Notes: generated by a model from the sequence alone, not told the origin. Shown: positions 7,566 to 32,124, counted from the first letter of the stretch. The stretch is DNA of 64,000 bases from Candidatus Parcubacteria bacterium (GCA_046050355.1 JBJOPW010000001.1:67858-131857); one strand, 5' to 3'. Made by a program: numbers and translations.

Positions 7566-9206
7566 CTACTGGGTGAGACTGTCTGTACCCGCATAAATTA
7601 TAATCGCTTTTTCATGAGCATCAGTCTGTGCTGATAGCAGACCGGTACCTAAGGTATTTCTCAGTTGGAGCGCTAATTGTTCTTCACCGGGCGGGTATAC
7701 GACAATCGATTTTTGCTCGCTGCGACTTTCATCAATGGTAATTGCTTCAATCGCATAACCAGCCTCTTCAAGTGAGAATTTGGCTTTTGCAGCCGCACCA
7801 GCTTGACCACTAATATTTATGATGCGTATGGGTACAAGCTGTTCAGTTTTTGTTTCAGGTTTAATTTTTGTTTGCCGAAGTTTCTCATACGCAATATCTT
7901 CAGATGACAGCGTCAAACCTTCGCCGGCATTATCAACCGATACTTGATAGTGGGTAGCGTCCTTGACGATACCAAGTACTGCCAAGTAAATACCCACAAA
8001 AACTCCACAAACAACAAGTAAGCCCAGCAAAACAAAGCGGTAATCAAATACGTATCGCCAAAGCGCAGATATTTTTTGTTGTAGGCCATGACTTTGGTGC
8101 CACGAGTCAAGGATTTCTTTTGCTGATGCCCGCATCGGAGCACCAACATTCGCGTACCGTTTAACAACCATGGTCCGATCAGGTGTCTGAGCTTGTCGCG
8201 CGTGATGAGGAATGTACGGCGCTTCGTGAACATTAACACCTGATAGAGCGAGCATTCGATCTATGTATCGTCGAATAAGCCAAAGTATAATTTTTATACT
8301 GACATAAAGAATCAACAAGGTAATCAAAATTGTTGTGTACGGAATCACCCAAAAGTAGGTAGTGCTCGTTACGAATTTCTTACCTTCTTCACCATACCCA
8401 AGTGTGGCCACCGCTCGGTATCGGCCGATATCATAAACTGCCGTATCACTTGACCAGGTGAAGGTAAATTTACGAATACTGTTGGGGAGTACATTGCCAA
8501 AGTGAGTTTGGTGATTAATTGGTATAAAACCACGTTCCTTCCCCCACATATTAAATATCTTGATATCACCCTGCGGTTGTACATGGACATTTCCATCATT
8601 CTCAAAACGCATAAAGAGGGTCGCTTCAGGCGTTTGTACAATGGCTTTACTTGCCATAAATTCGCGAATATCACCAGATTCTACAACATCACCAGAAACA
8701 CGAACAAAAAAGAGCGAGGTTACAAATTGAGCAGTTTGTACTTGCGACAGTGTTTCGCCATCGTGAGGAGGTTTGGTACCAACCAGGATGGCAGCATAGT
8801 GTCCGCCCGGAGCTGCCTGCTCGGGAATACGGACCGAAATAGGGATCTCAGCCGTTGCTTGTGGTGGTATGATGACCGGGTCAGCGGGAACAGTTATCCA
8901 CTCTGCCAATGTCTGCCCCTGTGTTTCTTCAGCAAAAATGGGAATAAGATCACCACGACCGTCTTCGCCAAGGGGCGCGAAATTTACTGGCTGCGGATAA
9001 ACTGTTAATGGATAATCATTTACATTGACCACCCGTAGCTGGCTTGTCCAACTCTGACTGGGATTCGCTTGCATCTCGAATAATGTCGGAGACACTGACA
9101 GCGTTTGCGACTCTTCTAGACCCTGTGCCGCTACAATGAGAGGACAGATAAACAACGCCAGCAAAAAGGCATATCGGTGCTTAATTTTTTTTAAGATTGA
9201 TGTCAT
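7566..9206 (-). CDS. Membrane protein: signal peptide, two beta-sandwich ectodomains (DUF916/DUF3324-like), two TM helices and a C-terminal LytR_C-like domain
   Basis: The N-terminal part is paralogous to the 9181-10167 and 25683-26630 products. The C-terminus IRIINISGQAGAAAKAKFSLEEAGYAIEAITIDES...VVYPPGEE resembles LytR_C. Start set to the ATG at 9206 (MTSILKKIKHRYAFLLALF). Confidence 0.6.
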   Translation of the reverse strand: MTSILKKIKHRYAFLLALFICPLIVAAQGLEESQTLSVSPTLFEMQANPSQSWTSQLRVVNVNDYPLTVYPQPVNFAPLGEDGRGDLIPIFAEETQGQTLAEWITVPADPVIIPPQATAEIPISVRIPEQAAPGGHYAAILVGTKPPHDGETLSQVQTAQFVTSLFFVRVSGDVVESGDIREFMASKAIVQTPEATLFMRFENDGNVHVQPQGDIKIFNMWGKERGFIPINHQTHFGNVLPNSIRKFTFTWSSDTAVYDIGRYRAVATLGYGEEGKKFVTSTTYFWVIPYTTILITLLILYVSIKIILWLIRRYIDRMLALSGVNVHEAPYIPHHARQAQTPDRTMVVKRYANVGAPMRASAKEILDSWHQSHGLQQKISALWRYVFDYRFVLLGLLVVCGVFVGIYLAVLGIVKDATHYQVSVDNAGEGLTLSSEDIAYEKLRQTKIKPETKTEQLVPIRIINISGQAGAAAKAKFSLEEAGYAIEAITIDESRSEQKSIVVYPPGEEQLALQLRNTLGTGLLSAQTDAHEKAIIIYAGTDSLTQ

Positions 9207-10167
9207 GGTCTTTAAGATCAGTATGCACACCATCACGAACATAAACGGGTAACGACTCATTATCTCCAGGTTCATGGTGGTGCCGGTTCTTATAAATGTA
9301 CAGAAGTGTCAGGAGTATACTCCCTCCCATAACCATAGCGAAGATAATCAGAATGGTTTGTAGTGGTACTACAGTAAAAAAAGTTGTGTCATAAAGGTTT
9401 GCTCGCTGTAATGTGCCGTATTCAACATCCAAAAAGGCTTTATGGCGTCCGTACATACCACTACGAGGTACTTCACCTCTAAACGGCGCCCGTTCGCCAG
9501 CAGCCAGTACTTTACCTTCATTATTTACTGCAATACTAGCTACCTCTCTTCCCCGCACGTCGTACACAATAATCTCGCCCTGTGGTTTGATCGGCAGGTC
9601 GCCGATGTTTTCTAGTTCGTAACTGACCGGAATAGTCTCGCCACTCGTTACATAGCGATCAATTATAAAATTATTAAGCCGCATATATTCGCTGCGCACA
9701 TCAGCCATCGAAATCCGCATGGTTACCCCAGGAGCCCGACCGCTCATAACCGCCGCTTCTGCTTCGTCTCGTTTATCACCATTACCAAAGCCGACAAAAG
9801 CGTAGTAATCACCTTGGACGGCATTTGGGTTTATTGTTAAGGTCACCGGGATTTTGACTGATTCGCCGGGTTGCAATTCCACTCGAGCTCGTGATACGGC
9901 AATCCAACTAGTCACATTGGTCGTTTGGTCCGTCATCACGGGTGATTCAAATGTCTTGATTGAACCATCTTCACCAAGGGTAATCGGATGAACGGACGGG
10001 AAAATTTTTACTGGCACGGTACCGGTATTGGTAATCTTAATCGTGTCTTCCAGAATATCCCGTGGCTTAACTTTGTGTTCGATAACTGGTGGCGTGACTG
10101 TATATGACTGAGCTGAAGCAATCAGAGGTGTTGTCAGTAAGCAAAATGTAAGAAAAATGTAACGCAT
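9181..10167 (-). CDS. Two-beta-sandwich surface protein with C-terminal TM anchor (DUF916/DUF3324-like, WxL-locus-type architecture)
   Basis: Signal peptide MRYIFLTFCLLTTPLIASA; ITNTGTVPVKIFPSV, VELQPGESVKIPVTLTI, YELENIGDLPIKPQGEIIVYD; C-terminal TM ILIIFAMVMGGSILLTLLYIY. Confidence 0.55.
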   Translation of the reverse strand: MRYIFLTFCLLTTPLIASAQSYTVTPPVIEHKVKPRDILEDTIKITNTGTVPVKIFPSVHPITLGEDGSIKTFESPVMTDQTTNVTSWIAVSRARVELQPGESVKIPVTLTINPNAVQGDYYAFVGFGNGDKRDEAEAAVMSGRAPGVTMRISMADVRSEYMRLNNFIIDRYVTSGETIPVSYELENIGDLPIKPQGEIIVYDVRGREVASIAVNNEGKVLAAGERAPFRGEVPRSGMYGRHKAFLDVEYGTLQRANLYDTTFFTVVPLQTILIIFAMVMGGSILLTLLYIYKNRHHHEPGDNESLPVYVRDGVHTDLKDHDINLKKN

Positions 10168-10173
10168 AAGATT

Positions 10174-13100
10174 TTAGTAAACAGGAACGGCTATATAGAC
10201 AATTTCGGTGGTATAACTAGCGGCTGGTTGCATCCCAGTCACCTTTACTCTATATACAATATCATGGCTGTCATTGGCTGGTAATGGACTATACATAACT
10301 TCAGCCACATCAGTATGGAGACCAGCATAACTATCAAGCGGAGCAAATCGCGTAGAACCACCCGTGAGCGTTGCATCTGTTGTATGGTAGCCGACACAAC
10401 CAGATGCGGTAGTGATACAACCAACCGCCCAAGCAGCCGGCACAGCATTAGTTCCGGTGACGGACGGGATTGGTGTCCCATAGCCATTTTGTAACTGCTG
10501 GCGCGCAAAAGACAGCACTCGGTAGCCATCAGTAGCATTAGTGGTGACCGCCAACCGGTGAGCTGCCACCGCATCAGTGTCAATTGGTATTGAACCGAAG
10601 GTTACCGTTGCCGGGGTAGTGGCTACCGTCGTAACTACACCAGCAGTCGTCGTACCACTTGGAAGTCCACTAATACTCAGTGTCAATTTTGGTGTCTCTG
10701 CAACAAGACTTGGGTATGATTCCCCGCTTGCTGGCGCAACCGGTGCGTCTTCAAAGACTTCGTAGAGTCTGAAGTAGTACACTGCCCCCGCCCGAGCAGC
10801 TGCATGACGGAGGTAAAAGGCAAATTCAGTCGACGCACCGGCTAGATGGGTGTACCCAGTCGTATAGGTTGGCGACTCGTTGTGTGTACCACAACCACTG
10901 CCTGTACCACCCGTACAGCTGTTAGCATCAGTCAGCACTTTAGTGGTAATAGTGGCATTATCAGTACCACCACCGTCGACATAACACCACGTTGAGGTGG
11001 CCGTACAAGCTGCTTGCGTCACGACATCTTTTGGCGACGTAAATGTTGGCGACTCGTCGTATTGGAGTTTAAATTTTATGTCTTGGCCCACCACATTTTT
11101 TCGTTGACCAACCGTAACGCGTAAAGTAAATTCATTTCCATTTTGTACCTCAATTGGTGAAATAATTTCACCAGAAAGTGGACTAAGGGGGGTTTCGCTT
11201 TCAGCATCATCATAAAAGCGCCAACGTTTTGTTTGTGGTGAATAGCCGGCTGTGCGGATTTGCGGGTAGTTAAAATAACCGTCTAATGGTGTACCGTCAC
11301 TCCGTACCATACGGAAACAGTAGGTATTACGTGAGATTGCACCATTGTGTTGAATAAACCAATCGTATTCTACGTCTTCACCCGGATCAACAATATAAGG
11401 GTTAGCTGGTGCCGGATTTTCTTCAACTAAACTACCAGCTCGATCAGCTACCGAAATTAACAAATCGCCTCCGGTTGGCGGGTTGGTACTTAAATTTGTA
11501 CCGTTTGTTGTCCCTGTGGCAGCGTACCCTCGCCAGATACCACTACCAGCCGCAGTGTCAAGATCACTCCAGGTACCAACGGTCGAACAGGAAGTAGCAC
11601 GCAATCCATACTGCAACTTAAAATCATACAGACCAGCCGGTAGGTTTGCGTTGGCTACCCGTAACGTCATGCGTAGTCGCACCAGGTCACCATCTCCGAG
11701 TGGTTCGTCGGCAATTGTAATGGGGTTGTTTTCACCCAAATCTGAGACACCAACCGGCCATGGGTCGGTGGGCTTCAGGGCATTATTATTAACATAGAAC
11801 CGATAGTAATTTTGACGAACAGCGAGTCCAGAAACTGGCCATTCCACAATTTCGGTACGATACGTCATTTCCCCTGAGGCTTCACTGCGCCACAGTTCAT
11901 AGGTGGACGTGCTCGTAATACGAGCACCGGCCATTGGTAAGGGAAAGGTCGTATTAGCCCCCACGACGCGGGTATTAGCAAATATTGATGCATTGTTTGT
12001 CGCTTCAATTGGTGAGAAGATTGAGATTGATAACGCTACTGGCTCAGTACCGGCGTTGGTCGTTCCATTTGTTCGTTGTACCTCCATAGCACCGGCACTG
12101 GTCTGCAGGTTTTCAATAATCCAAGCCACTGAAGTATGTCCGCTCGGTGCAGTAGCAGCGCCCTCAAGTCGGTATGATACGGCGCCAATACTCGACAGCC
12201 AAACTTCGTGGCCAAAGTTGTTGACGTTGCCTTGAGCGGTCATGCGTTTTTGTGTGTGTATAAACGAACGCGCTAAACTATTGAGCGTTGTTGGTATTGA
12301 TTCTGTTTCTACGGTTCCAACTGCAGTATACGTATGTTCACTTCGTTGCACCTGCCAATTAATGCCGGTAAATTCAACCACGGCATAGCTCACATTGATA
12401 ATAGCCCCACCGGCTCCACGATTAAAAACGGGTGCCGTACTGGTGGGACTCCAACTTGATGTTACTTGCCCGGCATAATACACGTTACGCGCAACATCAC
12501 GGTTCTCAATACCAGTTATAAAGACCACCACATCAGTATTATCGGTAATGGTACCAAGGGCAGTGCCGGTGGCTATCAAGGCGGCACTCGCCATATTGAC
12601 ACTCCCCACCCCTCTTACCTTCATTTCATTGTCGGTGCCAGCATCCCCAATAAACTCAACGATTTCCCAGTTCACCCGTGTATTTCCGGTGGCAGCTGGT
12701 GGCCGAGAAATGGTAAAATTGCTCGGTAAGTTAGCCGCCGAAATGTACGCGGTGATATCATCGGCATTTTGCGCTCCTCCACCAGCTGTCGTGCGTCCCG
12801 GCCCAGTGTTGTGGGTGTCAGTGAGACGGACAAAGGCAGTCGTTGTGCTCGCTGGAGCAGTATAGTCAACACCAGCGGTTAGCGTTTGTGACGTACCGGC
12901 GATGGTAGCAGTGCCACGCTGCACTTTAAAATCACGCTTGGGAGCAGTGGTTAGTTCTGCATAGTTACTATAGGTTAAGGGTTCTCCATTATTGGTGAGT
13001 CTAAAGCAATACGTAGTATTATAAGCAGTAATATTGGTAGAGGTAATACTAAATTCATACTCAGCAAATTCAGTTGTACTCATGACCAGAGCAGAGGTAG

Positions 13101-16100
13101 TACTCGTGGTATCACGTTGGCCGGCATTTGCGACAATAAAGGTTGGATTTGGGTCGGTAACACCCCCGTTTGCAACCGCAATATTGGTAGTGTTGTTACC
13201 GTTGGTGAGATTAGTGCTATCAAACATATTCCAGTCATCAGCACTATCGCCAACCGGTGTCCACACACTCACCGCACTACAGGTAGTCACGCGCGGTCCA
13301 AATTCAAGGCGATAGGCGGTTGCAACAGAAGCAGCCGCACCTTCGTTTGAAAGTGCCAGGCGTAGTCGGATTGGTGTATTGGCAGGGTGTTCTGTCAGGA
13401 GGACATTTTCTGACCCACCTGTAGCTGAAGTTGCTGTAGTTTCAGACCCATTGTCGTTACGCCAATGGTAACCATTTTGGGTAATCACTGGTCCTGAAAG
13501 CGTGGTGGTACCGTTAATTGCTATCGGTGTAGATGGTGATACCGATCCAGCCGAGACACCGATATCATTAGCGGGTGAAGAAATTTCTATTTGCACGGTG
13601 TCACCATTGCTAGCCGCAGCGGTAACATCAAACACCACATAAAGACAAACGGTCTGTGTGGTTGTTACGGTCACCGAGCCACTAAACGTTGATGTACCAT
13701 TTTGACTAGTAAAGCCATCAGTATCGGTGCTACCAAATTGCGTTTCTGATCCACCATACGATTCACTGGCACAATCGTACGGAGCGGTGGTGTCTAAATC
13801 ATATCTAAGCACTATGGTATCTAAGTGATTCTGTGCATCAACAGTGCCATTCTCAGCTATCATAATATTGGTAATATTTCGACTACTGGTGTTTTCACGA
13901 AAGACAAACTGGCCGCCGACATGTTGATTTGTAGATGGCACCAAGAGCGATGCTGTCTGACTACCTAAAGCGGTCACACTGACATCAGCGGCAATGGTGA
14001 CACTTGGGAATTGTGAATATACGGGTAAGGGGGTGCCAGCATTAGTAACACGAAAACAGTACGTTGTTCCCTCACTCGCTGAGGTTGATGCAACAATGGC
14101 ATATTCTAATTCAACAAAATTAGTGTTCGTTAGCGTTAAAGAGCCAGTTTGTGAAGAGACTTCGCGCAAGCCACCATTGGGGGTTAAAAATGTCGTGTTT
14201 TCGTCGGCCACACCACCAGTACCCACTGCAATATTAGTAGTATCTCCCCCTTCGGTAATATTTGCAGATAACGACATATTCCAGGCATCATCGGCTGCCC
14301 CGACATCAGTCCAACTCGTGGTGTCATTACAGGTCGGGGCTGCTACCCCATACTCCAAACGAAATGTTGATGCGGCGCTAGATAGTGAGCCTTCGTTTGA
14401 TACCTGCACGCGCAGGCGACGAGGGTTATTCGGCAACAGTGCAGCGATTGGTGTATCAGCTACTCCGCCGGTCGCAGATGAGGCGGTAGTTTCTGTACCG
14501 TTATCGTTACGCCAGTGGTAGTGCGTTTGGGTAAGTTCATCATTTTGAATCAGTGATGATGAAGCCATACGCACTGGAGATTCAGGCATTACCAGCACAC
14601 CACCAGTGACAATCACGTCATCATTAGGAGCTTCAACTGAAACTGACAACGTATCACCATCAAGGGCAGCTTCTAGTACATCGAGCACGACGTAGAAGCA
14701 CATGGCCTGTGTCGTGGTGATAGACTGTAAGCCAGAAAAACTCGAAACCCCATTAGCGCCAGAAAATCCATTAGTGTCTGTAAGTCCATACTGAGATTCA
14801 GTGCCACTATATGATTCACTGACACAGTCATAGGGGGCCGAAGTATCAAGGTCATAAAACAATTTCACATTGCTCACCGCAGTACTACCATTAATACTGC
14901 CACGCTCGTTAACGACTACAGCGGTCACATTCCGACTACTTTGGGTTTCTCGAATTGCAAACTTGCCGCCGACATAGACATTATTGGTACCGGCGGTGAT
15001 AACACTGGTCGCTGTACCGGTTGCATACAATTTTGTAATCGGTGCGATATCAGCAAGCGTATCACCAAAATAATCATCTGGTGCTGGGTCAGTCCAACTC
15101 ACATAGATGCGCTCATCACTCATGAGATTGATATCAAGACCACGATGGTCGCCAGCAGTCACACCCGAGACGGTTCGCTCAGGACTCCAGGTTGACATAG
15201 CAGAAGTTGAAGTCGCCCAGTAGATACCTCCGGTCGTGGCTGTCGCCGGTGTCGACCGTAGTACATAGGCAACATAAACAGTACTGGTATTGATATCTAA
15301 TCCAATCGCAACCGTATTAAGACCACGTGTTGTATTCGTAAATACTGCAGTTGTTCCAGTCCATGAACCGGATGAGAACTTAGCCGTACGAACATCATGA
15401 TCAAGTGTAGTATACGTGTCATGATCAGCACCATAGGCAAGATACACATCACCGGAGTTTGGGTCAACAACAGCCGCCATACTGGTATCGTACGTAGCAC
15501 TCTCAACGGCTGCCCCATCAATAGTAGTCCAACTGGCTGACCAAGCTGATCCATTCCATACACGTGACTGAATCACGTTTAAACTAATGTCACGGTTTAT
15601 AAGGAGTACATTGCCATTAATAAGTGGCAACAATATATTCCAATCATTATCAAGATCCATAAAACGCGCACCACCCGGCTCACTCCAGCCAGTAGTGGCG
15701 GTGCACCCCGTGTCAGTATCGCAACTCACCACAAAAGAATCAGCGGCATCTGAGATACCGATAAAAACTTCGTTACCAGCATTTTTTGTGACCGTGAGGT
15801 TGTTAGTACCCGATACGTAGGTGCCGGCCTGACTTGAGTTGGTACTCGCGTTCACTGGAGCAGTACCGAGGAGGAGAGTGTCGGTACTGGTATCAAGCGC
15901 ATTATAAAATACATGGTCGGGGTTTGAGGCCGTTTCCATTGTTGCTATATGAATCGTGCTCCCAAAGTCGCCGGGTGTCCACTGGTCATACCACACCGCA
16001 ATACTCGAACAGTCAGTTTGGGCATCTACAATCACTGGTGTATTCCAGACCGTACCACCGTTTGTAGTCTTACTATACACACAACTACCAGAGAGATCTC

Positions 16101-16335
16101 GGTAAAACTTGTACCCCACCTGATCAGAAGTGAACACCGTTTGGGAGCCACCGAAGAAAAATGAGTTGGCATCGGTACTCACCGTAGCATCAATGGTATT
16201 TTGGGCAGCTTCGGCCATAGTCGGCCAGGCCATATACTCCAAAAACGTGAAGTTGAGAAAAAACATCACAGCTAACATGATGCCAGCAATCAGTCGACGC
16301 CATCCATACCAAAAAAACGCTGGAAACCTCCGCAT
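10174..16335 (-). CDS. Giant secreted surface protein (2,053 aa): N-terminal anchor, WNGSAW-type repeats, repeated YxWRxDxG beta-sandwich modules, WxL-like C-terminal module
   Basis: Uninterrupted 6.2-kb ORF starting at an ATG. YHWRNDNG(T/S)ETTA occurs twice; also RWRFYDDAESE and YCFR(V/L)TN. C-terminus ...SYTTEIVYIAVPVY. Confidence 0.85.
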   Translation of the reverse strand: MRRFPAFFWYGWRRLIAGIMLAVMFFLNFTFLEYMAWPTMAEAAQNTIDATVSTDANSFFFGGSQTVFTSDQVGYKFYRDLSGSCVYSKTTNGGTVWNTPVIVDAQTDCSSIAVWYDQWTPGDFGSTIHIATMETASNPDHVFYNALDTSTDTLLLGTAPVNASTNSSQAGTYVSGTNNLTVTKNAGNEVFIGISDAADSFVVSCDTDTGCTATTGWSEPGGARFMDLDNDWNILLPLINGNVLLINRDISLNVIQSRVWNGSAWSASWTTIDGAAVESATYDTSMAAVVDPNSGDVYLAYGADHDTYTTLDHDVRTAKFSSGSWTGTTAVFTNTTRGLNTVAIGLDINTSTVYVAYVLRSTPATATTGGIYWATSTSAMSTWSPERTVSGVTAGDHRGLDINLMSDERIYVSWTDPAPDDYFGDTLADIAPITKLYATGTATSVITAGTNNVYVGGKFAIRETQSSRNVTAVVVNERGSINGSTAVSNVKLFYDLDTSAPYDCVSESYSGTESQYGLTDTNGFSGANGVSSFSGLQSITTTQAMCFYVVLDVLEAALDGDTLSVSVEAPNDDVIVTGGVLVMPESPVRMASSSLIQNDELTQTHYHWRNDNGTETTASSATGGVADTPIAALLPNNPRRLRVQVSNEGSLSSAASTFRLEYGVAAPTCNDTTSWTDVGAADDAWNMSLSANITEGGDTTNIAVGTGGVADENTTFLTPNGGLREVSSQTGSLTLTNTNFVELEYAIVASTSASEGTTYCFRVTNAGTPLPVYSQFPSVTIAADVSVTALGSQTASLLVPSTNQHVGGQFVFRENTSSRNITNIMIAENGTVDAQNHLDTIVLRYDLDTTAPYDCASESYGGSETQFGSTDTDGFTSQNGTSTFSGSVTVTTTQTVCLYVVFDVTAAASNGDTVQIEISSPANDIGVSAGSVSPSTPIAINGTTTLSGPVITQNGYHWRNDNGSETTATSATGGSENVLLTEHPANTPIRLRLALSNEGAAASVATAYRLEFGPRVTTCSAVSVWTPVGDSADDWNMFDSTNLTNGNNTTNIAVANGGVTDPNPTFIVANAGQRDTTSTTSALVMSTTEFAEYEFSITSTNITAYNTTYCFRLTNNGEPLTYSNYAELTTAPKRDFKVQRGTATIAGTSQTLTAGVDYTAPASTTTAFVRLTDTHNTGPGRTTAGGGAQNADDITAYISAANLPSNFTISRPPAATGNTRVNWEIVEFIGDAGTDNEMKVRGVGSVNMASAALIATGTALGTITDNTDVVVFITGIENRDVARNVYYAGQVTSSWSPTSTAPVFNRGAGGAIINVSYAVVEFTGINWQVQRSEHTYTAVGTVETESIPTTLNSLARSFIHTQKRMTAQGNVNNFGHEVWLSSIGAVSYRLEGAATAPSGHTSVAWIIENLQTSAGAMEVQRTNGTTNAGTEPVALSISIFSPIEATNNASIFANTRVVGANTTFPLPMAGARITSTSTYELWRSEASGEMTYRTEIVEWPVSGLAVRQNYYRFYVNNNALKPTDPWPVGVSDLGENNPITIADEPLGDGDLVRLRMTLRVANANLPAGLYDFKLQYGLRATSCSTVGTWSDLDTAAGSGIWRGYAATGTTNGTNLSTNPPTGGDLLISVADRAGSLVEENPAPANPYIVDPGEDVEYDWFIQHNGAISRNTYCFRMVRSDGTPLDGYFNYPQIRTAGYSPQTKRWRFYDDAESETPLSPLSGEIISPIEVQNGNEFTLRVTVGQRKNVVGQDIKFKLQYDESPTFTSPKDVVTQAACTATSTWCYVDGGGTDNATITTKVLTDANSCTGGTGSGCGTHNESPTYTTGYTHLAGASTEFAFYLRHAAARAGAVYYFRLYEVFEDAPVAPASGESYPSLVAETPKLTLSISGLPSGTTTAGVVTTVATTPATVTFGSIPIDTDAVAAHRLAVTTNATDGYRVLSFARQQLQNGYGTPIPSVTGTNAVPAAWAVGCITTASGCVGYHTTDATLTGGSTRFAPLDSYAGLHTDVAEVMYSPLPANDSHDIVYRVKVTGMQPAASYTTEIVYIAVPVY
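12990..15090 (-). repeat. Tandem in-frame duplication (~1.05 kb, ~350 aa per unit) inside the 2,053-aa gene
   Basis: The anchor sequence encoding YHWRNDNG sits at 14497-14520 and 13447-13470 (1,050 nt apart). The flanking protein segments align, for example LFYDLDTSAPYDCVSESYSG with LRYDLDTTAPYDCASESYGG. Confidence 0.75.
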
Positions 16336-22334: not shown

Positions 22335-23489
22335 TTAGAACACTGGGGTTGCTACGTATGTCAGCGTAGCGTTGTAGTCGTTCCCCGCTTCCTGGAGCGG
22401 AGAAATTTCAACCTTGTAACCAACGCGGGTACGACCAATATTTGGTGTAACTCCGTCTGATGGTCCATTGTGTCGAAATACTTCAACCGGTGTGGTCGAG
22501 GCAGAAACAAAGCGCTGCCCGGTTCCTCCGGCATCAAATGGATCGGTGAGACCAGCGGTGAGTGAGGCGTCTTCTGTGGTTAGACCCCAGTGACCCCACG
22601 TATTCTCATTACTGATTGTCCCGGTTGGTGGATCCCACGCCACTGGCGTGTTAGTGTACGCACCATCAATAAATCCATCGATATCAGCACCCGTTGAAGA
22701 GAGCAACTGCTGATCAACTTCTACTGTTACCGCAAAGCCGTAACTCGCATTTGTTGACACAGACAATTGCTGAGCTGATGTCGTGGCTGAACCCTGTGTC
22801 AAAACTCCAAATGGAATTGAGGTAGCAGAGGTCGAGCCAGTAATTGCTTCTTGGTTAACGGTACCGGTAGCGACACCACTTACCGTAAAGGTAAAGCTCG
22901 TGTCAACAGCGGCTGTAACCACGACTGGTGAAATGATCGCTACTCGAGTAGACCCACTATCTACTGAACCAGCAGTGATGTCAATCTCGTATGAGCCGAC
23001 AGCAGGGTTGGTCAATTGAGCGTTACCAGTGGCACCAAAGGTGGCATTGGTTCCGATCTGAATAGTGGTAGTGCCATTAGCCGGTAATGAGGCACCATCG
23101 CCGGGACAGAACTGGAGCGTAATGGTGTTGGTAGTTGTTGAAAAACCAACTTCATCAGATCCTCCACATCCGTTCCCAACAGACAAATCTGTTCCATCAT
23201 CAGTGATATCTACATCGTCAAACGCGACTGCTCCAAGAGCGAAAGGCCCGTTAGAGAAATTGAGGACAATAGATTCACCGTTTGCTACGCCAGTAGGTGT
23301 AACAAAACTGATGGTGTGATTTGATGGCACACTCGGGGCTGAATCCGAGAGCGTATCACTTACTAATCTGACATTTGCGGCCTCCGCAAAGCGGAATGTT
23401 GGTAGACCCAATGACCATAACAAAATGGCAAGTCCAACAACAGAAGCCAGTGCTTGGAGTAGTCCGAACGTTGAATTCGTTCTACTCAT
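22335..23489 (-). CDS. Secreted surface protein (384 aa from the ATG at 23489) with WxL-like C-terminal module; candidate abundant surface subunit
   Basis: Signal MSRTNSTFGLLQALASVVGLAILLW. N-terminal motif SDTLSDSAPSVPSNHTISF. C-terminal half aligns with the 2,053-aa C-terminus (FG..L...L.V.TNA..G) and ends YNATLTYVATPVF. The ORF-track start at 23543 is a TTG. Confidence 0.7.
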   Translation of the reverse strand: MSRTNSTFGLLQALASVVGLAILLWSLGLPTFRFAEAANVRLVSDTLSDSAPSVPSNHTISFVTPTGVANGESIVLNFSNGPFALGAVAFDDVDITDDGTDLSVGNGCGGSDEVGFSTTTNTITLQFCPGDGASLPANGTTTIQIGTNATFGATGNAQLTNPAVGSYEIDITAGSVDSGSTRVAIISPVVVTAAVDTSFTFTVSGVATGTVNQEAITGSTSATSIPFGVLTQGSATTSAQQLSVSTNASYGFAVTVEVDQQLLSSTGADIDGFIDGAYTNTPVAWDPPTGTISNENTWGHWGLTTEDASLTAGLTDPFDAGGTGQRFVSASTTPVEVFRHNGPSDGVTPNIGRTRVGYKVEISPLQEAGNDYNATLTYVATPVF

Positions 23490-25682: not shown

Positions 25683-26630
25683 CTACGTTAAACGAGAACG
25701 ACGGTTATGAATAAAGAATAAGATGACAATAAGTACTGCGAAGATTGGCAGCAGGATCGATAGCTTGTGTGCTATTGATAGTCCCATAAAGCCGTAACCA
25801 GCGACCTGTAGCGTGCCATATGGCAATATACTCAAGTTGAGTTCACCCTCTTGTTTGACATCCTCGCCATTTTTAATGGTATACCGCGCGATATAGCTAC
25901 CAGCCGGTAACCGGGTCGGGAGTGAGGCACTAATTTCTTCTATCGCGTAGGGAGCGATTTTTTTGAGACGACCCGTATGGTGGGTTTCCTCGAGTAATAC
26001 GGCGCCAGCGCGATCATAAATACGAAACTCAACATCTGACGGAGCAACATCAATGTTACCGGTGTTCTCAATCAACATCGAAAAATTAATCTTGCCAGGG
26101 AAATACAACCAACCAACTTTCTTTCCTTCATTGAGATCACTGACAGTAATCTTACGGACGCGGAAATCTTCGATGACTTTATCAATGACTGATAGATCGA
26201 CATCAACTTGAGCACCCAGAGAAATGCTTACGACACCCTCAGCGACCTGATCATCAGCTGGCAGCGTACGGATACGAATCTTGCCGGTATAGTCTGCAAA
26301 ATCTGCCTCAGCTGGAACCTTGATACGTACTGTCATGGGCACTTTTTGTTGTCCACGTGGCAAGGCGATACTTTGACCTTCAACAATCTCTATCCAATCC
26401 TGAATCTCTGGTGCGTCAATTGTAATTTCGGCTTTGAGATTGTCACTTGGGTTACCACGAACCAGGAGAATCTGCTGTTCGTAGGTTGAGTTGCGTGTCA
26501 GGCTGGTGTTCCGAACATACGGCGGGGTAATACCAAAACTAGCGTAACTTAAGGCTGGCCAAAAAGCCAAAGTTGCGAGCACACACAAAACAAAAGAACG
26601 AAGCAAAAACGTTGGCAAAATTACCTTCAT
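25683..26630 (-). CDS. Two-beta-sandwich surface protein with C-terminal TM anchor (DUF916/DUF3324-like), third paralogue
   Basis: Signal MKVILPTFLLRSFVLCVLATLAFWPALSYA; QQKVPMTVRIKVPAEADFADYTGKIRI; MLIENTGNIDVAPSDVEFRIYD; TM LSILLPIFAVLIVILFFI. Start set to the ATG at 26630. Confidence 0.55.
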   Translation of the reverse strand: MKVILPTFLLRSFVLCVLATLAFWPALSYASFGITPPYVRNTSLTRNSTYEQQILLVRGNPSDNLKAEITIDAPEIQDWIEIVEGQSIALPRGQQKVPMTVRIKVPAEADFADYTGKIRIRTLPADDQVAEGVVSISLGAQVDVDLSVIDKVIEDFRVRKITVSDLNEGKKVGWLYFPGKINFSMLIENTGNIDVAPSDVEFRIYDRAGAVLLEETHHTGRLKKIAPYAIEEISASLPTRLPAGSYIARYTIKNGEDVKQEGELNLSILPYGTLQVAGYGFMGLSIAHKLSILLPIFAVLIVILFFIHNRRSRLT

Positions 26631-26722: not shown

Positions 26723-28600
26723 TTACCAACTTAATGGATTTGAGATTGCACCAGTGAAAGTGTTTTGTCCGGTGTATGATCCAGCGAGGGTGATCGTACC
26801 TGGTACCGCAATACCCCAGTAGGTTGTACCTGATGTTGGTGTCGAGGTCGCAGTTGGTTTTGGAATCTGAATCTGTAACGTTGCCGGTGACGTAGTTGGT
26901 TGAAGCGCTGCACCAGAGGCATAGGCAACCGCAGAAGTAGCATACCGCTGCTCACCTTGTGGAATTGTCGACGTGGCAGAAACTGGGCAAGGGTTAGTGG
27001 TACTAAAGGTCGTACACATAGACTCACCACCAAGGAGTTGATTAAGACCAGTGTTACCAAGGACTCGTAGTGATGACGATGAAGTCAAGTTTGGCATGTT
27101 TGTCCCCGGCTCAAGCTGATCGTACGCAATGGTACTCGTCAGGAGATCAATGGCCACGAGACTCAAGAGTTCTACCGGACTGGTGGTAGTCGCCATGGTA
27201 CCAGTGGCATTATCATCATCGACACCAGCTACACCAGCACTCCAAGCCTGCGTATCAAATGGTGTTCCAGAAACAGTTGGATCAGCAATGAACCAGAGTG
27301 GGAAGGAACATGAGTAACTGATCGTATCGTCAGTGTTGCCGGTACACGATGTTGTGGAAGCTGTACATGAAAGGTTCCAAACTGAAGCAGCTACTCCACT
27401 TGGATAACAGTTGTTTGCATTGTAAGCTCCAGCTGATCCATCACAAGTTGTTGTTCCAACCGCACTACGGAAGATAGAGACCACCGAACGCTGGATTTCA
27501 TCAGCCGCACCGCCACCAACCGCATCACAACTGTTAGCATCAGCCACCACAAAATCAAGCGTAAAACCTGTTGTTTGTGAACCCGGCACTGTAAGCACTA
27601 TATCAAGTCCACCATTAAGAGAAATGGTACCACCGGCCACTGTTGGTGCGACGTTGCTGACTTCAAAGGTAACGTTTGTACCTTGTGCACCACCTGATGC
27701 TTCGTGACCGTGCTCATCATAAAGATACGCAAATGCGTTGTAGTTAGTGTCCTGAAGAATAGTAGCCATTACTCGCGAGGTGGTGGCGTTAGCAAACGCA
27801 ATCGAGAGTGATGATGAAGCAACAGTATCACCGGCGCCACAACTGTTCGTACTGGTACTATATGAAGCCGAACCACAAACTACCAGGTAAAGTGCGTCAT
27901 CAGTATCTACAACGTCTGGGTCAGTAGAGGTTGATCTAAAGAGTAGTGTACCGCCTGGATTAACTGGACCATCATTACTAAACCCAGTGAAAACTGGTCG
28001 ACGATTCACATTAAATGGTGACGAGTTCGTCGCATTTGTACCCTGTGAGAAAGTGGTACTACAACGGGGGTTTACCGGATCATCGTCACACACCCAGGCG
28101 TACCAGTCGTTTGATTCAGCAAAGGGCGCAACTTCTACGGTCGTGGTGGCAGCACGGGCTTCAGTGCCACTTGGCGTGCCCGTAGAAACCGCCCAGCGTG
28201 TACCAGCACTACAGACAGGAGCCGCAGTACCTAAGGTGGTTGTCGACTGTTGAGCAGTTGGGGTGGCGTTTGTACTACACACAATGAGGAAGTATGGTGC
28301 ACCGTTGGCATCGCTTGCTGTTCCGACCCAAGCTACTTGATCACCTGAGTTCGTTGGCGAGGTTGAAGATGAGCTGATTAACTCACGACCCTCTTGTCCA
28401 GCCACCCAGGTTGGCGGCGTGTTAAGTACGGTCAACGTGGTCGTTGCAGTACTGGTCGCTTCGGCCTTTTCAAGCTCAGTTTTACCAATGTTAAGAATAA
28501 AGATGAAGGTAAAAATGAGCAACCCTGATAATGCTGATAATACGGTGATTTTCCCAGCGGTCTCTACATACCGTGGAAAGTTATTTTTGTTGTACAACAT
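26723..28600 (-). CDS. Secreted surface protein (625 aa), Thr/Ser-rich with Cys pairs; C-terminal module shared with the 7,456-aa protein
   Basis: N-terminal anchor ITVLSALSGLLIFTFIFIL. The C-terminus IAYDQLEPG...LGNTG...IPKPT...TYWGIAVPG...SYTGQNTFTGAISNPLSW parallels INYGSLAPQ...ANAGN...LSKPT...IFWGIEVPFG...GINVFTPVSP. Confidence 0.7.
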   Translation of the reverse strand: MLYNKNNFPRYVETAGKITVLSALSGLLIFTFIFILNIGKTELEKAEATSTATTTLTVLNTPPTWVAGQEGRELISSSSTSPTNSGDQVAWVGTASDANGAPYFLIVCSTNATPTAQQSTTTLGTAAPVCSAGTRWAVSTGTPSGTEARAATTTVEVAPFAESNDWYAWVCDDDPVNPRCSTTFSQGTNATNSSPFNVNRRPVFTGFSNDGPVNPGGTLLFRSTSTDPDVVDTDDALYLVVCGSASYSTSTNSCGAGDTVASSSLSIAFANATTSRVMATILQDTNYNAFAYLYDEHGHEASGGAQGTNVTFEVSNVAPTVAGGTISLNGGLDIVLTVPGSQTTGFTLDFVVADANSCDAVGGGAADEIQRSVVSIFRSAVGTTTCDGSAGAYNANNCYPSGVAASVWNLSCTASTTSCTGNTDDTISYSCSFPLWFIADPTVSGTPFDTQAWSAGVAGVDDDNATGTMATTTSPVELLSLVAIDLLTSTIAYDQLEPGTNMPNLTSSSSLRVLGNTGLNQLLGGESMCTTFSTTNPCPVSATSTIPQGEQRYATSAVAYASGAALQPTTSPATLQIQIPKPTATSTPTSGTTYWGIAVPGTITLAGSYTGQNTFTGAISNPLSW

Positions 28601-29231: not shown

Positions 29232-30440
29232 CTATTCATAGCGAATCGCATCCAGTGGATTTAGAGACGAAGCCCGACGGGCTGGGAAGATTCCAGTCAA
29301 GTACCCCACCGCCGCTGAGAAGAGAGCAATAAATACGAGGAAGCCAATCGGGAAAGAAAAGAGCTTCACTGCCTGCCCGCCAAATTGCCCCGCCACAATA
29401 TTCAAAAAGACATTGATGGTCACCCCTAAACCTACCCCCATCACGATGCCACTAATACCGCCAAGGAAGCCTACTACCACCGACTCTGACACGAAGAGGT
29501 ACTTCACATCATTTGGTGAGGCCCCAATCGTACGCATAATACCGATCTCTTTGGTACGCTCAAGGAGGGTCACCGTCATGGTATTGAACATACCAATGGC
29601 TGACACTACTAGCGCAATACCACCGAAGGTAGCAAGTACGATCTGAATTCCTTGAAAGATTTTGGAAGCTTGCTCCACGGTCTTTGAGAGTGCTGTCACC
29701 CGGTAGCCAGCGTCGATAAGTTTATTTTCTACAATCGGTAAATTCTCGTTGGTATCAACGCGTACTTGAATCCGTTCAAATTCTTCAATACCGACATAGT
29801 TGCGTAGTTCAGGCAACATCATCATCGCATTAAGGACACCTTCCTCTTTGGTAATGCCACGAACAGTGTATTCCTTATCAATAATGACTTCAGTGTTGTT
29901 GTTAGTCCCATCATTAGCCGGAATCAAAATACGAAATGATACTTTTTCACCAACAAAGGTGGCTGGATCATCAACTCCAAACAGCTTTAGTACGGCTGGC
30001 GAAAGCATCACAGAATTCGTATCACCAGCGTCAGCATCGGTAAAGACAGTGCCTTCAGTGGCCGATACGCCGGCATACCGCAGATAAGGTGGCTCCACAC
30101 CTTGAATAAAGACGTTCCCGGTGAGACCTTTGTAGGTGACGAGAGCCGGAAAGCGAGCGAGCGGAGCGGCGTCGAGTACCTCAGGCATATTTTCAAAATC
30201 AGCCACGGTCTCGGTGGTCAATTTTAGGTTTTGCGCACCAGTAGCTGAGACACCGAGCGACAAAAGGGTCTCACCAAACACGATCTGTTCTAGAATGATT
30301 TGCTGCAAACCAAACCCAAGACCAACGAGAATCACCACGGCCCCTGTCCCCACACCCATACCCAAAATCGTGAGCCACGTACGAAGCGGGTTGGTTTTGA
30401 ACATACGCGTCGAAAGCTGCGCCAGATCCTGAACTCGCAT
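29232..30440 (-). CDS. ABC transporter permease, FtsX/MacB-type (4 TM plus large extracytoplasmic domain)
   Basis: FKTNPLRTWLTILGMGVGTGAVVILV at the N-terminus; C-terminal LERTKEIGIMRTIGASPNDV...FPARRASSLNPLDAIRYE. The ORF-track start at 30461 is a TTG inside the promoter-like box, so the ATG at 30440 is preferred. Confidence 0.85.
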   Translation of the reverse strand: MRVQDLAQLSTRMFKTNPLRTWLTILGMGVGTGAVVILVGLGFGLQQIILEQIVFGETLLSLGVSATGAQNLKLTTETVADFENMPEVLDAAPLARFPALVTYKGLTGNVFIQGVEPPYLRYAGVSATEGTVFTDADAGDTNSVMLSPAVLKLFGVDDPATFVGEKVSFRILIPANDGTNNNTEVIIDKEYTVRGITKEEGVLNAMMMLPELRNYVGIEEFERIQVRVDTNENLPIVENKLIDAGYRVTALSKTVEQASKIFQGIQIVLATFGGIALVVSAIGMFNTMTVTLLERTKEIGIMRTIGASPNDVKYLFVSESVVVGFLGGISGIVMGVGLGVTINVFLNIVAGQFGGQAVKLFSFPIGFLVFIALFSAAVGYLTGIFPARRASSLNPLDAIRYE

Positions 30441-30446
30441 AGTACT

Positions 30447-30460
30447 TACATTATGACACA
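30447..30460 (-). promoter_or_regulatory. Extended -10-like box TGTGTCATAATGTA, 9 nt (from CATAAT) upstream of the permease ATG
   Basis: An identical 14-mer recurs upstream of the ATPase ATG (31908-31921). Confidence 0.4.
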
Positions 30461-30504
30461 ACTACTTTTCGTAAACATTAGATAACCCCCATGTCAAAAT
30501 GAAT

Positions 30505-30572: not shown

Positions 30573-30577
30573 TGATG

Positions 30578-31900: not shown

Positions 31901-31907
31901 ACGTAGC

Positions 31908-32105: not shown

Positions 32106-32124
32106 ATGCGCTAGTTTGGAGATT

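What the first reader, a model, noticed from the sequence alone, without database searches (positions are those of the whole stretch)
7566..16335. WxL-locus-like gene pairing scaled up to giant proteins
Four secreted proteins end in a related C-terminal beta-rich module that finishes with an aromatic-x(n)-P motif:
- 402-aa: ...YNATLTYVATPVF
- 2,053-aa: ...SYTTEIVYIAVPVY
- 625-aa: ...SYTGQNTFTGAISNPLSW
- 7,456-aa: ...HSGINVFTPVSP

The 402-aa and 2,053-aa C-termini align over ~170 aa (FG..., L.V.TNA..G...). The 625-aa and 7,456-aa C-termini form a second alignable pair (I.Y..L.P(G/Q), (G/A)N.G, KPT, (Y/F)WGI.VP).

This resembles the Firmicutes WxL cell-wall-binding domain (...Y..tltWtL...P), with W replaced by Y or F.

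Two of these genes are immediately followed by genes for signal peptide + two beta-sandwich + C-terminal TM proteins. The 2,053-aa gene is followed by 9181-10167 and 7566-9206; the 625-aa gene is followed by 25683-26630. That architecture is the one DUF916/DUF3324 proteins have as partners of WxL proteins in Enterococcus and Lactobacillus loci.

One paralogue is additionally fused to a LytR_C-like domain. If the homology holds, a WxL-type non-covalent wall-attachment system is being used here to tether 2,000-7,500-aa proteins.
Basis: inference. Interest (0 to 1): 0.65.

Follow-up and report, generated by a model that had tools for sequence, protein, structure and literature searches.

The report
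Pam-like pilus genes with giant adhesins
In this ultrasmall (CPR/Paceibacteria) bacterium, two enormous surface proteins and two smaller ones end in pilin-type domains and sit next to membrane-anchored helper proteins related to the WxL-interacting proteins of Firmicutes, so they most likely belong to a recently described type of pilus rather than a cell-wall-binding WxL system.

Summary
The observed layout is real. Two pairs of secreted proteins share C-terminal modules: 402/2053 aa (BLASTP 8e-7) and 625/7456 aa (4e-12). Three paralogous proteins with a signal peptide, two Ig-like domains and a TM helix follow the 2053-aa and 625-aa genes, and one carries LytR_C.

The WxL reading is half right.
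- **Partner proteins:** they are homologues of WxLIP (DUF916/DUF3324). hhalign gives 97.5%, E 6e-12, and the best PDB hit is EfmWxLIP1.
- **C-terminal modules:** they are not demonstrably WxL. There are no PF13731 hits, and profile scores are no better than reversed or shuffled controls.
- **Type 1 (402/2053):** belongs to a CPR family of about 1200 clusters. Half of the sampled members hit NCBIfam "CPR_Pam_pilin_C".

Best reading: Pam-like, usher-less donor-strand pili. The 384-aa protein would be the shaft pilin, the giants would be tip adhesins, and the WxLIP-like proteins would be membrane-anchored chaperones or anchors. I class this as a new variant of a known kind. The link between the two module types, and from either to WxL, remains unproven.

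The parts
10174..16335 (-). 2053-aa secreted giant protein; putative tip adhesin carrying a type-1 pilin-type C-terminal domain
   Evidence: ORF. N-terminal hydrophobic segment at aa 15-33. No Pfam family over the whole length. A 64%-identical 2035-aa orthologue lies in the same gene order in GCA_019752815.1.
10177..10692 (-). Type-1 C-terminal domain of the 2053-aa protein (aa ~1882-2053)
   Evidence: BLASTP to the 402-aa C-terminus, E 8e-7. NCBIfam NF058581 CPR_Pam_pilin_C at 7e-4, covering profile positions 3-148 of 148. Matches the pilin-family HMM from position 36 to the end (E 3.7e-30) but not the preceding linker segment.
9181..10167 (-). 328-aa WxLIP-like membrane-anchored chaperone/anchor (signal peptide, two Ig-like domains, TM at aa 271-289, short cytoplasmic tail)
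   Evidence: 117 homologues, all named ones from CPR. hhalign of the family against WxLIP: 97.5%, E 6e-12. The family's best PDB hit is EfmWxLIP1.
7566..9206 (-). 546-aa paralogue (the ORF extends to 9275; the likely start is the Met at 9206): signal peptide, two Ig-like domains, TM1, cytoplasmic loop, TM2, extracytoplasmic LytR_C
   Evidence: BLASTP to the 328-aa protein, 7e-23. Pfam WxLIP_PGBD 8e-5 (below threshold) and LytR_C 1e-8. TM segments at 316-334 and 419-437 in ORF numbering. A 550-aa orthologue with LytR_C is present in L001.
7581..7835 (-). LytR_C domain of the 546-aa protein
   Evidence: PF13399 at E 1e-8, 36.4 bits (cut-off 22.2), residues 481-565 of the 569-aa ORF.
22335..23489 (-). 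384-aa two-domain pilin-like protein (the 402-aa ORF; the database homologues start 18 codons in); putative shaft subunit
   Evidence: 1814 homologues; the top 120 cluster representatives are 64-100% identical to it. AF2 model with pLDDT 83: N-terminal beta-sandwich, a low-confidence linker, then the C-terminal domain. NF058581 at 3.5e-5. The linker and C-terminal domain are the most conserved segments across 125 diverse relatives.
26723..28600 (-). 625-aa secreted protein with a type-2 C-terminal domain (last ~170 aa, 26726-27235)
25683..26630 (-). 315-aa WxLIP-like chaperone/anchor (the ORF extends to 26729), immediately downstream of the 625-aa gene
   Evidence: hhalign against the 328-aa family: 97.7%, E 2.4e-12 over both domains. 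TM at aa 323-341 of the ORF. The same pairing occurs in L006, L008 and L009.
33751..56121 (-). 7456-aa secreted giant protein; putative tip adhesin with a type-2 C-terminal domain
   Evidence: Only DUF2341 and Ig_Rha78A_N are found by Pfam. It shares internal domains with the 2053-aa protein.
33754..34194 (-). Type-2 C-terminal domain of the 7456-aa protein (aa ~7310-7454)
   Evidence: BLASTP to the 625-aa protein, 4e-12. Leave-one-out HMM E 5e-29 at aa 7319-7452.
29232..33732 (-). Conserved intervening genes: a 4x fn3 secreted protein (32257-33732) and a MacB-type ABC transporter (ATPase 30578-31900, FtsX permease 29232-30461). Their role in the system is unknown.
   Evidence: Pfam. The same order, fn3 - ABC - FtsX - type-2 protein - chaperone, is found in L008 and L009.

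Best explanation
The window comes from a Paceibacteria/Parcubacteria (CPR) genome. It carries two gene sets for usher-less, donor-strand-type surface filaments of the kind recently described as Pam pili.

Proposed roles:
- The C-terminal modules are pilin-type, strand-accepting Ig-like domains.
- The highly conserved 384-aa protein (N-terminal sandwich + linker + C-terminal domain) is the polymerising shaft subunit.
- The 2053-aa and 7456-aa proteins, and perhaps the 625-aa protein, have the layout of two-domain tip adhesins such as FimH or PapG: a receptor-binding region followed by a C-terminal pilin domain. They would be held at the distal end of a filament, or on the chaperone itself.
- The three proteins with a signal peptide, two Ig-like domains and a TM helix are membrane-anchored chaperones or anchors. 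They are homologous to Firmicutes WxLIP and analogous to PamC/PamD. They would complete the open fold of the C-terminal domain with a strand and hand it on to the next subunit.
- One of them additionally carries a wall-associated LytR_C domain.

Shown: the homologies, the domain architecture and the conserved gene pairing.
Inferred: strand complementation, polymerisation, and the tip position of the giants.
For: - **Organism:** the proteins are 100% identical to proteins of a Candidatus Parcubacteria MAG.
- **Type-1 domain family:** 1204 cluster representatives, and in the 150 best matches the domain lies at the extreme C-terminus in all but one.
- **Pam signal:** 62 of 125 sampled members hit NF058581 'Pam pilus system pilin subunit', best 7.6e-11. 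It is the only recurrent family. The window proteins hit it at 3.5e-5 and 7e-4, the latter across the full profile.
- **Pilin architecture:** the AF2 model shows a beta-sandwich, linker and C-terminal domain. The linker and C-terminal domain are the best-conserved parts. The Pam preprint reports the same for PamA/B (10.64898/2026.03.03.709456).
- **Chaperone architecture:** the preprint describes PamC/D as two-Ig-domain chaperones with a C-terminal TM helix, which is the architecture of the 328/546/315-aa proteins.
- **WxLIP homology:** these proteins are WxLIP homologues. AF2 predicts that a WxLIP strand completes the WxL sandwich (PMC10599100).
- **Conserved pairing:** a chaperone gene follows the type-2 gene in 4 of 4 loci. 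The giant gene followed by two chaperone genes occurs in 2 of 2 loci.
- **Tip position:** the 2053-aa protein matches the pilin HMM only from the C-terminal domain onward. It lacks the conserved RVAII-PVxVTAxVD segment, which fits an acceptor-only (tip) subunit.
Against: - All NF058581 hits are far below the curated cut-off. The window proteins score 20-24 bits against a cut-off of 55.
- I could not obtain PamA-D sequences or structures, so there was no direct comparison.
- The Pam preprint reports the system mainly in Saccharimonadia and Microgenomatia, not Paceibacteria.
- Type 2 has no sequence link to Pam, to type 1 or to any known family.
- I did not recognise PamR-like terminator or PamT-like tip genes.
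- I do not know which residues form the donor strand, so the 'acceptor-only' argument for the giants is weak.
- No complex prediction could be run.
Confidence: 0.55

Rival explanations
1. A WxL-type tether without polymerisation. Each C-terminal module is the CPR counterpart of a WxL domain. It stays bound, by strand complementation, to its membrane-anchored WxLIP-like partner and/or to peptidoglycan. The 2-7.5k-aa proteins are therefore held at the cell surface individually, with LytR_C adding a wall contact.
For: - The partner proteins are true WxLIP homologues.
- The cluster grammar matches WxL clusters as defined in PMC10599100: a small protein plus a large protein with the same C-terminal module, and one or two partner genes nearby.
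- Motifs visible by eye (FG..., G-aromatic-x-hydrophobic, AG-x-Y-x(3)-T-aromatic ... P) align in register with the WxL motifs in the hhalign output.
- WxL domains are likewise always C-terminal.
- One partner carries a LytR_C domain.
Against: - No PF13731 hit in the 4 window proteins or in 125 + 33 relatives.
- hhalign against a deep WxL profile gives P 0.02-0.04, indistinguishable from the reversed control at 0.05-0.22.
- HMM scores lie within shuffled noise.
- The Trp residues that define the motif are absent.
- Type 1 instead hits the Pam pilin domain.
- The 384-aa protein's strong conservation and its conserved linker fit a polymerising subunit better.
Confidence: 0.25
2. The C-terminal modules are ordinary Ig-like adhesin or stalk domains, or TasA/camelysin-like fibre domains, with no dedicated partner. 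The neighbouring two-Ig-domain membrane proteins are unrelated surface proteins that happen to be syntenic in a cell-surface gene island.
For: - The region is packed with surface proteins: cohesin, dockerin, fn3 and Big domains.
- Much of the synteny also covers housekeeping genes.
Against: - The modules are confined to the extreme C-terminus in all but one of the 150 listed relatives, and they are the most conserved part of those proteins.
- The chaperone-like gene immediately follows a module-bearing gene in every locus examined, including the distantly related L006, where the surrounding genes differ.
- There is no Peptidase_M73/TasA Pfam hit. No SipW-type gene was noticed in the window, though I did not search for one specifically.
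Confidence: 0.1

Closest known systems
Pam pilus system of CPR bacteria (PamA/PamB pilins, PamC/PamD membrane-anchored chaperones; Candidatus Mycosynbacter amalyticus; bioRxiv 10.64898/2026.03.03.709456; NCBIfam NF058581)
   Same: - CPR-restricted.
[quoted passage not shown]
- Linker and C-terminal domain are the most conserved parts.
- Chaperone candidates have two Ig-like domains and a C-terminal TM helix.
- No usher.
- The type-1 module and half of its sampled relatives hit the Pam C-terminal domain model.
   Different: - The hits are well below the model's cut-off.
- The host is Paceibacteria rather than Saccharimonadia or Microgenomatia.
- The pilin domain is fused to 2053-aa and 7456-aa proteins, which the preprint does not describe.
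- There is a second, sequence-unrelated C-terminal module (type 2) with its own chaperone.
- One chaperone is fused to LytR_C.
- No recognisable PamR or PamT, and no ATP-synthase neighbourhood.
WxL / WxLIP (DUF916-DUF3324) clusters of Bacillota (Csc clusters; PF13731, PF06030, PF11797; PDB 9i1y, 9i25)
   Same: - The partner proteins are homologous (hhalign 97.5%) and have the same architecture: signal peptide, two Ig-like domains, TM helix, 315-550 aa.
- The module is always C-terminal.
- Small and large module-bearing proteins are encoded near one partner gene.
- AF2 predicts that a WxLIP strand inserts into WxL.
   Different: - The C-terminal modules do not match the WxL profile and lack the Trp-x-Leu motifs.
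- The conserved WxLIP N-terminal motif NQIDKxxxYFDLK is not evident.
- On its own, domain 2 does not align with DUF3324.
- No small LPXTG (CscD-type) gene.
- The cargo proteins are 2-7 times larger than large WxL proteins (500-1000 aa).
- The organisms are CPR, not Firmicutes.
Chaperone-usher pili (Fim, Pap, Csu, CFA/I) and their two-domain tip adhesins FimH/PapG
   Same: - The layout 'adhesin region + C-terminal pilin domain' is that of tip adhesins.
- A chaperone with two Ig-like domains is encoded next to the subunits.
   Different: - No outer membrane and no usher.
- The chaperone is membrane-anchored.
- No sequence similarity to FimC or the Fim pilins (hhalign P 0.24-0.73).
- The adhesin regions are 10-40 times longer.
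Donor-strand fibres of monoderms, archaea and the environment: TasA (8aur), AbpA bundling pili (7ueg), TLP-1a/b pond fibrils (9ikk)
   Same: - Ig-like or jelly-roll subunits completed by a strand from a neighbouring subunit.
   Different: - Those subunits donate an N-terminal strand and need no dedicated chaperone gene.
- No Peptidase_M73 signature, and no SipW-type gene was noticed.

Membership tests
WxL domain (PF13731) | Significant match to the WxL profile | tested here: not met
   No PF13731 hit at E<=1 for the four window proteins, at E<=0.1 for 125 type-1 relatives, or at E<=1 for 33 type-2 relatives. hhalign against 104 genuine WxL domains gives P 0.022 and 0.038, compared with 0.052 and 0.22 for the reversed control.
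WxL domain (PF13731) | Two Trp-x-Leu motifs (GWxL and LTWxL...P) | tested here: not met
   Type 1 has YGFAV / DGYRV and LTYVATPVF / IVYIAVPVY. Type 2 has YWGIAVP and NTFT(G/A). The aromatic residues align in register with the WxL tryptophans in the hhalign output, but the Trp-x-Leu motifs themselves are absent.
WxL domain (PF13731) | Fold equivalent to the solved WxL domain (9i25 chain A) | tested here: inconclusive
   [not shown]
WxL domain (PF13731) | Non-covalent binding to peptidoglycan | not testable with these tools
   Needs binding assays with recombinant modules.
WxL cluster (Hassan et al. 2023 definition) | At least one WxLIP gene and two module-bearing genes within a few genes of each other | tested here: met
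   The 7456-aa and 625-aa genes are three genes apart, with the 315-aa partner adjacent. The 384-aa and 2053-aa genes are five genes apart, with two partners adjacent. This is met only if the modules are accepted as WxL equivalents.
WxLIP (DUF916 PF06030 + DUF3324 PF11797 + TM helix) | N-terminal domain homologous to DUF916/PGBD | tested here: met
   PF06030 is below threshold but is the most frequent hit: 36 of 119 members, best 1.1e-5; the 569-aa protein scores 8e-5. hhalign of domain 1 gives 93-97%. The best hit in the whole PDB is EfmWxLIP1 at E 0.015.
WxLIP (DUF916 PF06030 + DUF3324 PF11797 + TM helix) | Second domain homologous to DUF3324/HBD | tested here: inconclusive
   Domain 2 alone against the HBD gives P 0.075, and the family has no PF11797 hit. 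However, the full-length alignment to 44 WxLIPs extends over columns 28-265 against 25-278 of 361, that is, into the second domain.
WxLIP (DUF916 PF06030 + DUF3324 PF11797 + TM helix) | Signal peptide, two Ig-like domains, C-terminal TM helix, about 320-380 aa | tested here: met
   The 328-aa and 315-aa proteins fit. The 546-aa protein adds a second TM helix and LytR_C.
WxLIP (DUF916 PF06030 + DUF3324 PF11797 + TM helix) | Conserved N-terminal motif NQIDKxxxYFDLK | tested here: not met
   The corresponding stretch reads YTVTPPVIEHKVKPRDILED in the 328-aa protein. The alignment places a gap opposite the NQ...YFDL segment.
Pam pilus system (CPR) | Pilin C-terminal domain matching NF058581 CPR_Pam_pilin_C | tested here: inconclusive
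   The hits are specific but below threshold: 23.9 and 19.7 bits against a cut-off of 55. 62 of 125 relatives hit at E<=1e-3, best 7.6e-11. Type 2 has no hit.
Pam pilus system (CPR) | Pilin = N-terminal beta-sandwich + linker strand + C-terminal truncated Ig domain, with linker and C-terminal domain most conserved | tested here: met
   AF2 model of the 384-aa protein and the conservation profile. This is met for the 384-aa protein only.
Pam pilus system (CPR) | Membrane-anchored two-Ig-domain chaperones (PamC/PamD) in the operon | tested here: inconclusive
   The architecture matches. There is no NCBIfam hit.
Pam pilus system (CPR) | Assembly into filaments by donor-strand exchange | not testable with these tools
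   Needs complex prediction or cryo-EM/ET. Only single-chain prediction was available.
Chaperone-usher pili | Outer-membrane usher and periplasmic PapD-family chaperone | tested here: not met
   No usher-like ORF was seen in the window. hhalign of the chaperone family against FimC gives P 0.24.
Sortase-assembled pili | C-terminal LPXTG sorting signal with a TM helix; a sortase gene | tested here: not met
   The C-termini end ...ATPVF...AVPVY...NPLSW and ...TPVSP, with no hydrophobic tail.
TasA/camelysin (PF12389) | Match to Peptidase_M73 and an N-terminal donor strand | tested here: not met
   [not shown]

The most novel reading that the evidence does not exclude
The WxL/WxLIP clusters of Firmicutes and the Pam-type pili of CPR bacteria would be two branches of one ancient, usher-less system of monoderm envelopes. 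In it, a membrane-anchored two-Ig-domain protein (WxLIP, PamC/D, or the 328-aa family here) completes and hands over strand-accepting C-terminal domains. In Paceibacteria this system would display 2,000-7,500-aa adhesins at filament tips, which would make them by far the largest pilus-borne adhesins known. A second, so far unannotated acceptor-domain family (type 2) would also exist. On this reading, 'WxL-interacting proteins' would be reinterpreted as pilus-type chaperones or anchors rather than host-binding proteins.
Probability: 0.3. Interest if true: 0.8.

Novelty: new variant of a known kind. Interest (0 to 1): 0.6.

Why it matters
CPR/Patescibacteria live attached to host cells, and how they make contact is a central open question. 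Pam pili were only identified in 2026, in one cultivated Saccharimonadia species.

This locus suggests four things:
- The same assembly principle operates in Paceibacteria.
- It may be used to present giant adhesins, which are obvious candidates for host-recognition determinants.
- There is a second, unannotated acceptor-domain family with its own chaperone.
- The chaperones are sequence homologues of Firmicutes WxLIP. The Pam preprint does not mention this link. If it extends to the modules, it would recast the poorly understood WxL clusters of enterococci, listeriae and lactobacilli as donor-strand systems.

Each point can be tested directly with complex prediction and with the solved 9i25 and Pam structures.

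Tried and rejected
- **afdb50 fold search:** this would have listed WxL-annotated models, but the library is not installed.
- **Foldseek against the PDB with the full pilin model:** only generic two-Ig-domain adhesins.
- **Siezen 2006 supplementary alignments:** I tried to assemble WxL sequences from the OCR text, but it was too garbled. I obtained genuine WxL/WxLIP loci instead, by tblastn on plasmids and a genome-contig scan.
- **HMM-versus-sequence tests between type 1, type 2 and WxL, with shuffled controls:** no signal.
- **Profile searches of both module types against PDB sequences:** nothing.
- **hhalign of the chaperones and modules against FimC and the Fim pilins:** nothing.
- **Pfam on the giants:** almost empty.
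- **Sortase pili and cohesin-dockerin anchoring of the giants:** considered and rejected, because there is no LPXTG and no dockerin at their C-termini.

Full report
**Where the window comes from and what is in it**

All genes of interest lie on the minus strand. The 402-aa ORF (384 aa from the start used by its database homologues) and the 328-aa ORF are 100% identical to proteins of a 'Candidatus Parcubacteria bacterium' MAG. Their named relatives are all Paceibacteria, Patescibacteria or Kaiserbacteria. The region is a surface-protein island. In transcription order it contains:
- a 514-aa cohesin-TM protein;
- the 7456-aa giant;
- a 4x fn3 protein;
- a MacB-type ABC pair;
- the 625-aa protein, then the 348/315-aa membrane protein;
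- a dockerin protein;
- (an HD-domain gene on the plus strand);
- the 402/384-aa protein;
- two cohesin-TM proteins, a 225-aa protein, a cohesin-dockerin protein and a beta-propeller protein;
- the 2053-aa giant, then the 328-aa and 569/546-aa membrane proteins;
- housekeeping genes.

**Checking the observation**

Within-window BLASTP confirms two pairs of related C-termini. The 2053 and 402 C-termini give E 8e-7 (28% over 191 aa). The 625 and 7456 C-termini give E 4e-12 (27% over 295 aa). The last ~140 aa of the 7456-aa protein match a leave-one-out HMM of the 625-type module at E 5e-29. Default HMMER filters miss this in the 7456-aa sequence, and --max is needed.

All four proteins have a single N-terminal hydrophobic segment and no C-terminal anchor.

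The three membrane proteins are paralogues. The 569 and 328 proteins give 7e-23, and the 348-aa protein against the 328 family gives hhalign 97.7%, E 2.4e-12 over both domains. Each has a signal sequence and a C-terminal TM helix. The 569-aa protein also has a second TM helix and a LytR_C domain (1e-8).

I could not confirm that the two module types are related to each other. hhalign gives P 0.006-0.009, and HMM scores are within the range of shuffled sequences. I therefore call them type 1 (402/2053) and type 2 (625/7456).

**The partner proteins are WxLIP homologues**

- Pfam WxLIP_PGBD (DUF916) is below threshold in the window proteins (8e-5 and 0.019). Across 119 family members it is the most frequently hit family: 36 members, best 1.1e-5. 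Other Ig-like families (fn3_5, ASH, CARDB) follow at similar levels.
- To test this properly I retrieved genuine WxL loci. Four came from Bacillus, Listeria, Enterococcus and Melissococcus plasmids, and 60 came from Bacillota genomes. From these I built local profiles of 104 non-redundant WxL domains and 44 WxLIPs.
- hhalign of the CPR family against WxLIP gives 97.5%, E 6e-12 over 232 columns. The column-reversed control gives 10% (P 0.003), and FimC gives P 0.24.
- A profile search of all PDB sequences puts EfmWxLIP1 (9i25_C, 9i1y_A) first, at E 0.015.
- Taken alone, domain 1 aligns with DUF916 at 93-97%. Domain 2 alone does not reach significance against DUF3324 (P 0.075).

**The C-terminal modules are not demonstrably WxL**

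- None of the four window proteins hits PF13731. Neither do any of 125 diverse type-1 relatives or 33 type-2 relatives.
- Against the 104-sequence WxL profile, hhalign gives P 0.022 (type 1) and 0.038 (type 2). Against the reversed WxL profile it gives 0.052 and 0.22, so the real comparisons are not distinguishable from the control.
This is a lead, not evidence.

**What the modules match instead**

*Type 1.*
- An exhaustive profile search finds 1204 cluster representatives at E<=1e-3, with 234 at E<=1e-30. In the 150 best matches the domain ends at the protein's last residue in all but one. Most of these proteins are 340-400 aa, and some reach 1022 aa.
- Of 125 of these, 62 hit NCBIfam NF058581 'CPR_Pam_pilin_C, Pam pilus system pilin subunit' at E<=1e-3 (best 7.6e-11). 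No other family recurs.
- The window proteins hit it at 3.5e-5 and 7e-4, the latter over profile positions 3-148 of 148. All scores are below the curated 55-bit cut-off, so this is a distant relationship.
- The source paper is bioRxiv 10.64898/2026.03.03.709456. It describes PamA/PamB of Ca. [quoted passage not shown] That domain accepts the neighbour's linker, and the linker and C-terminal domain are the most conserved parts. It also describes chaperones PamC/PamD with two Ig-like domains and a C-terminal TM helix.
- The AF2 model of the 384-aa protein (pLDDT 83) shows this architecture, with a low-confidence linker at residues 186-203. Across 125 relatives no more than 50% identical to each other, the best-conserved 12-mers all lie in the C-terminal domain or at the junction between the N-terminal domain and the linker.
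- The preprint does not mention WxL or DUF916.

*Type 2.*
- It has no Pfam or NCBIfam family at all and no PDB sequence relative.
- The top-60 list is nevertheless strikingly enriched in chaperone-usher pilins: CsuA/B, FimA/G/I, the FimH and PapG pilin domains, PapA/E/F/H, CfaB, CooA, EcpD, CS17/CS20 and CupE.

**Conserved gene pairing**

- In GCA_019752815.1 the order 2035-aa giant, 325-aa, 550-aa (LytR_C) is preserved. The giant is 64% identical along its whole length.
- In three further metagenomic or genomic loci, the type-2 gene is immediately followed by a member of the chaperone family (E 1.5e-10 to 4.5e-19).
- L008 and L009 share the order fn3 - ABC - FtsX - type-2 protein - chaperone. 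In L006 the surrounding genes differ, and two type-2 genes (540 and 308 aa) precede one chaperone gene.
- Small complete type-2 proteins (~310 aa: signal peptide, one Ig-like domain, the module) exist. They parallel the two-domain type-1 pilin.

**Mechanism proposed**

*Shown:* two families of strictly C-terminal modules, one of them distantly related to the Pam pilin domain. Each is encoded next to WxLIP-homologous membrane proteins with two Ig-like domains.

*Inferred:*
- The membrane proteins act like PamC/D, or like WxLIP in the 9i25 complex and its AF2 prediction. They would complete the open sheet of the module with one of their own strands at the membrane surface.
- The 384-aa protein polymerises by donating its conserved linker to the preceding subunit's C-terminal domain.
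- The giants have the layout of FimH/PapG-type tip adhesins and would be the first, distal subunits.

In support of the tip position, the 2053-aa protein matches the pilin HMM only from position 36 (the ...FTFTVSG strand) onward. It lacks the conserved RVAII-PVxVTAxVD stretch. However, I do not know which residues form the donor strand, so this is weak.

The main rival keeps the same chemistry but drops polymerisation. Each module would stay bound to its membrane partner (and perhaps to peptidoglycan, helped by LytR_C), giving a WxL-like tether. The data here cannot separate these two readings. I weight the pilus reading higher for three reasons: the Pam signal, the very strong conservation and abundance of the 384-aa protein in databases, and its conserved linker.

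**Comparison with what is known, and novelty**

This is not a member of the WxL domain family, because defining features were tested and not met. Its partner proteins are members of the wider WxLIP family. It is best filed as a distant, Paceibacteria variant of the Pam system.

Four features are not in the preprint:
- fusion of the pilin domain to 2-7.5k-aa proteins;
- a second, unannotated acceptor-type module with its own chaperone;
- a chaperone-LytR_C fusion;
- sequence homology of the chaperones to Firmicutes WxLIP.

The last point raises the possibility that WxL clusters and Pam pili share ancestry. I give that about 0.3, because the modules themselves show no detectable similarity.

**Limits**

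- No multimer prediction, no pairwise structure superposition, no AFDB search, and no access to the Pam protein sequences.
- NF058581 hits are below threshold.
- The relation between type 1 and type 2 rests on context and fold class only.

Noticed in passing
window 19478-21226, 56211-57755, 21195-22328, 18038-18793 (cohesin-like); 24571-25677, 58657-60627, 18038-18793 (dockerin): A set of cohesin-like + Big_13 + C-terminal-TM proteins and dockerin-bearing secreted proteins is interleaved with the pilin and chaperone genes. A cohesin-TM gene sits next to each giant gene. The same families recur in loci L008 and L009. This suggests a second, cohesin-dockerin surface-display system in the same island.
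   Followed up: partly
window 58657-60627 (-), first ~80 aa: The N-terminus of the 656-aa dockerin protein resembles the N-terminus of the 384-aa pilin (BLASTP 4e-7). The shared features are the signal peptide and the motif SDT(L/I)S(D/Q)SAP...NHT(I/L)SF, which is also highly conserved across the pilin family. Its meaning is unknown; a shared first strand or a processing site are possibilities.
   Followed up: no
window 29232-33732 (-); L008 2967-7088; L009 2783-7455: A 4x fn3 secreted protein and a MacB-type ABC transporter (ATPase + FtsX/MacB_PCD permease) lie between the giant type-2 gene and the 625-type gene, in the same order in three genomes. They may have a role in export or assembly.
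   Followed up: partly
L009 1-2355 and 2319-2774: In GCA_964513495.1 the type-2 module of a giant protein of at least 2803 aa is encoded by a separate 151-aa ORF that overlaps the end of the giant gene (HMM E 2.7e-31). This is either a frameshift or assembly error, or a stand-alone module like the single-domain tip pilin PamT.
   Followed up: no
L006 6303-9871: In a distantly related locus, two type-2 genes (540 aa and 308 aa) are followed by one chaperone-family gene. This is the same 'two module proteins + one partner' layout that defines WxL clusters.
   Followed up: partly
[not shown]
   Followed up: partly
window 10174-16335 and 33751-56121: The two giants share internal domains. 2053 aa 613-784 and 975-1128 resemble 7456 aa 7029-7198, the domain just upstream of the type-2 module. 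2053 aa 1498-1605 resembles 7456 aa 1877-1986. Pfam recognises almost nothing in either protein, only DUF2341 and Ig_Rha78A_N in the 7456-aa protein.
   Followed up: no
window 33751-56121: hmmsearch with default filters fails to report the clear type-2 module at the end of the 7456-aa protein, but --max finds it at E 2e-39. Routine annotation pipelines may therefore miss terminal domains of giant proteins.
   Followed up: yes
window 1214-1849 (+): By eye, the 211-aa ORF looks like an IS200/RAYT-type Y1 transposase (..LLPNHYHLLV..). It is the only clearly plus-strand gene at this end of the window. I did not check it with any tool.
   Followed up: no
window 9181-9206 and 26630-26729: The mechanical ORF starts of the 569-aa and 348-aa proteins are probably too far upstream. 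With the 9206 start, the 546-aa gene overlaps the end of the 328-aa gene by 26 nt.
   Followed up: partly
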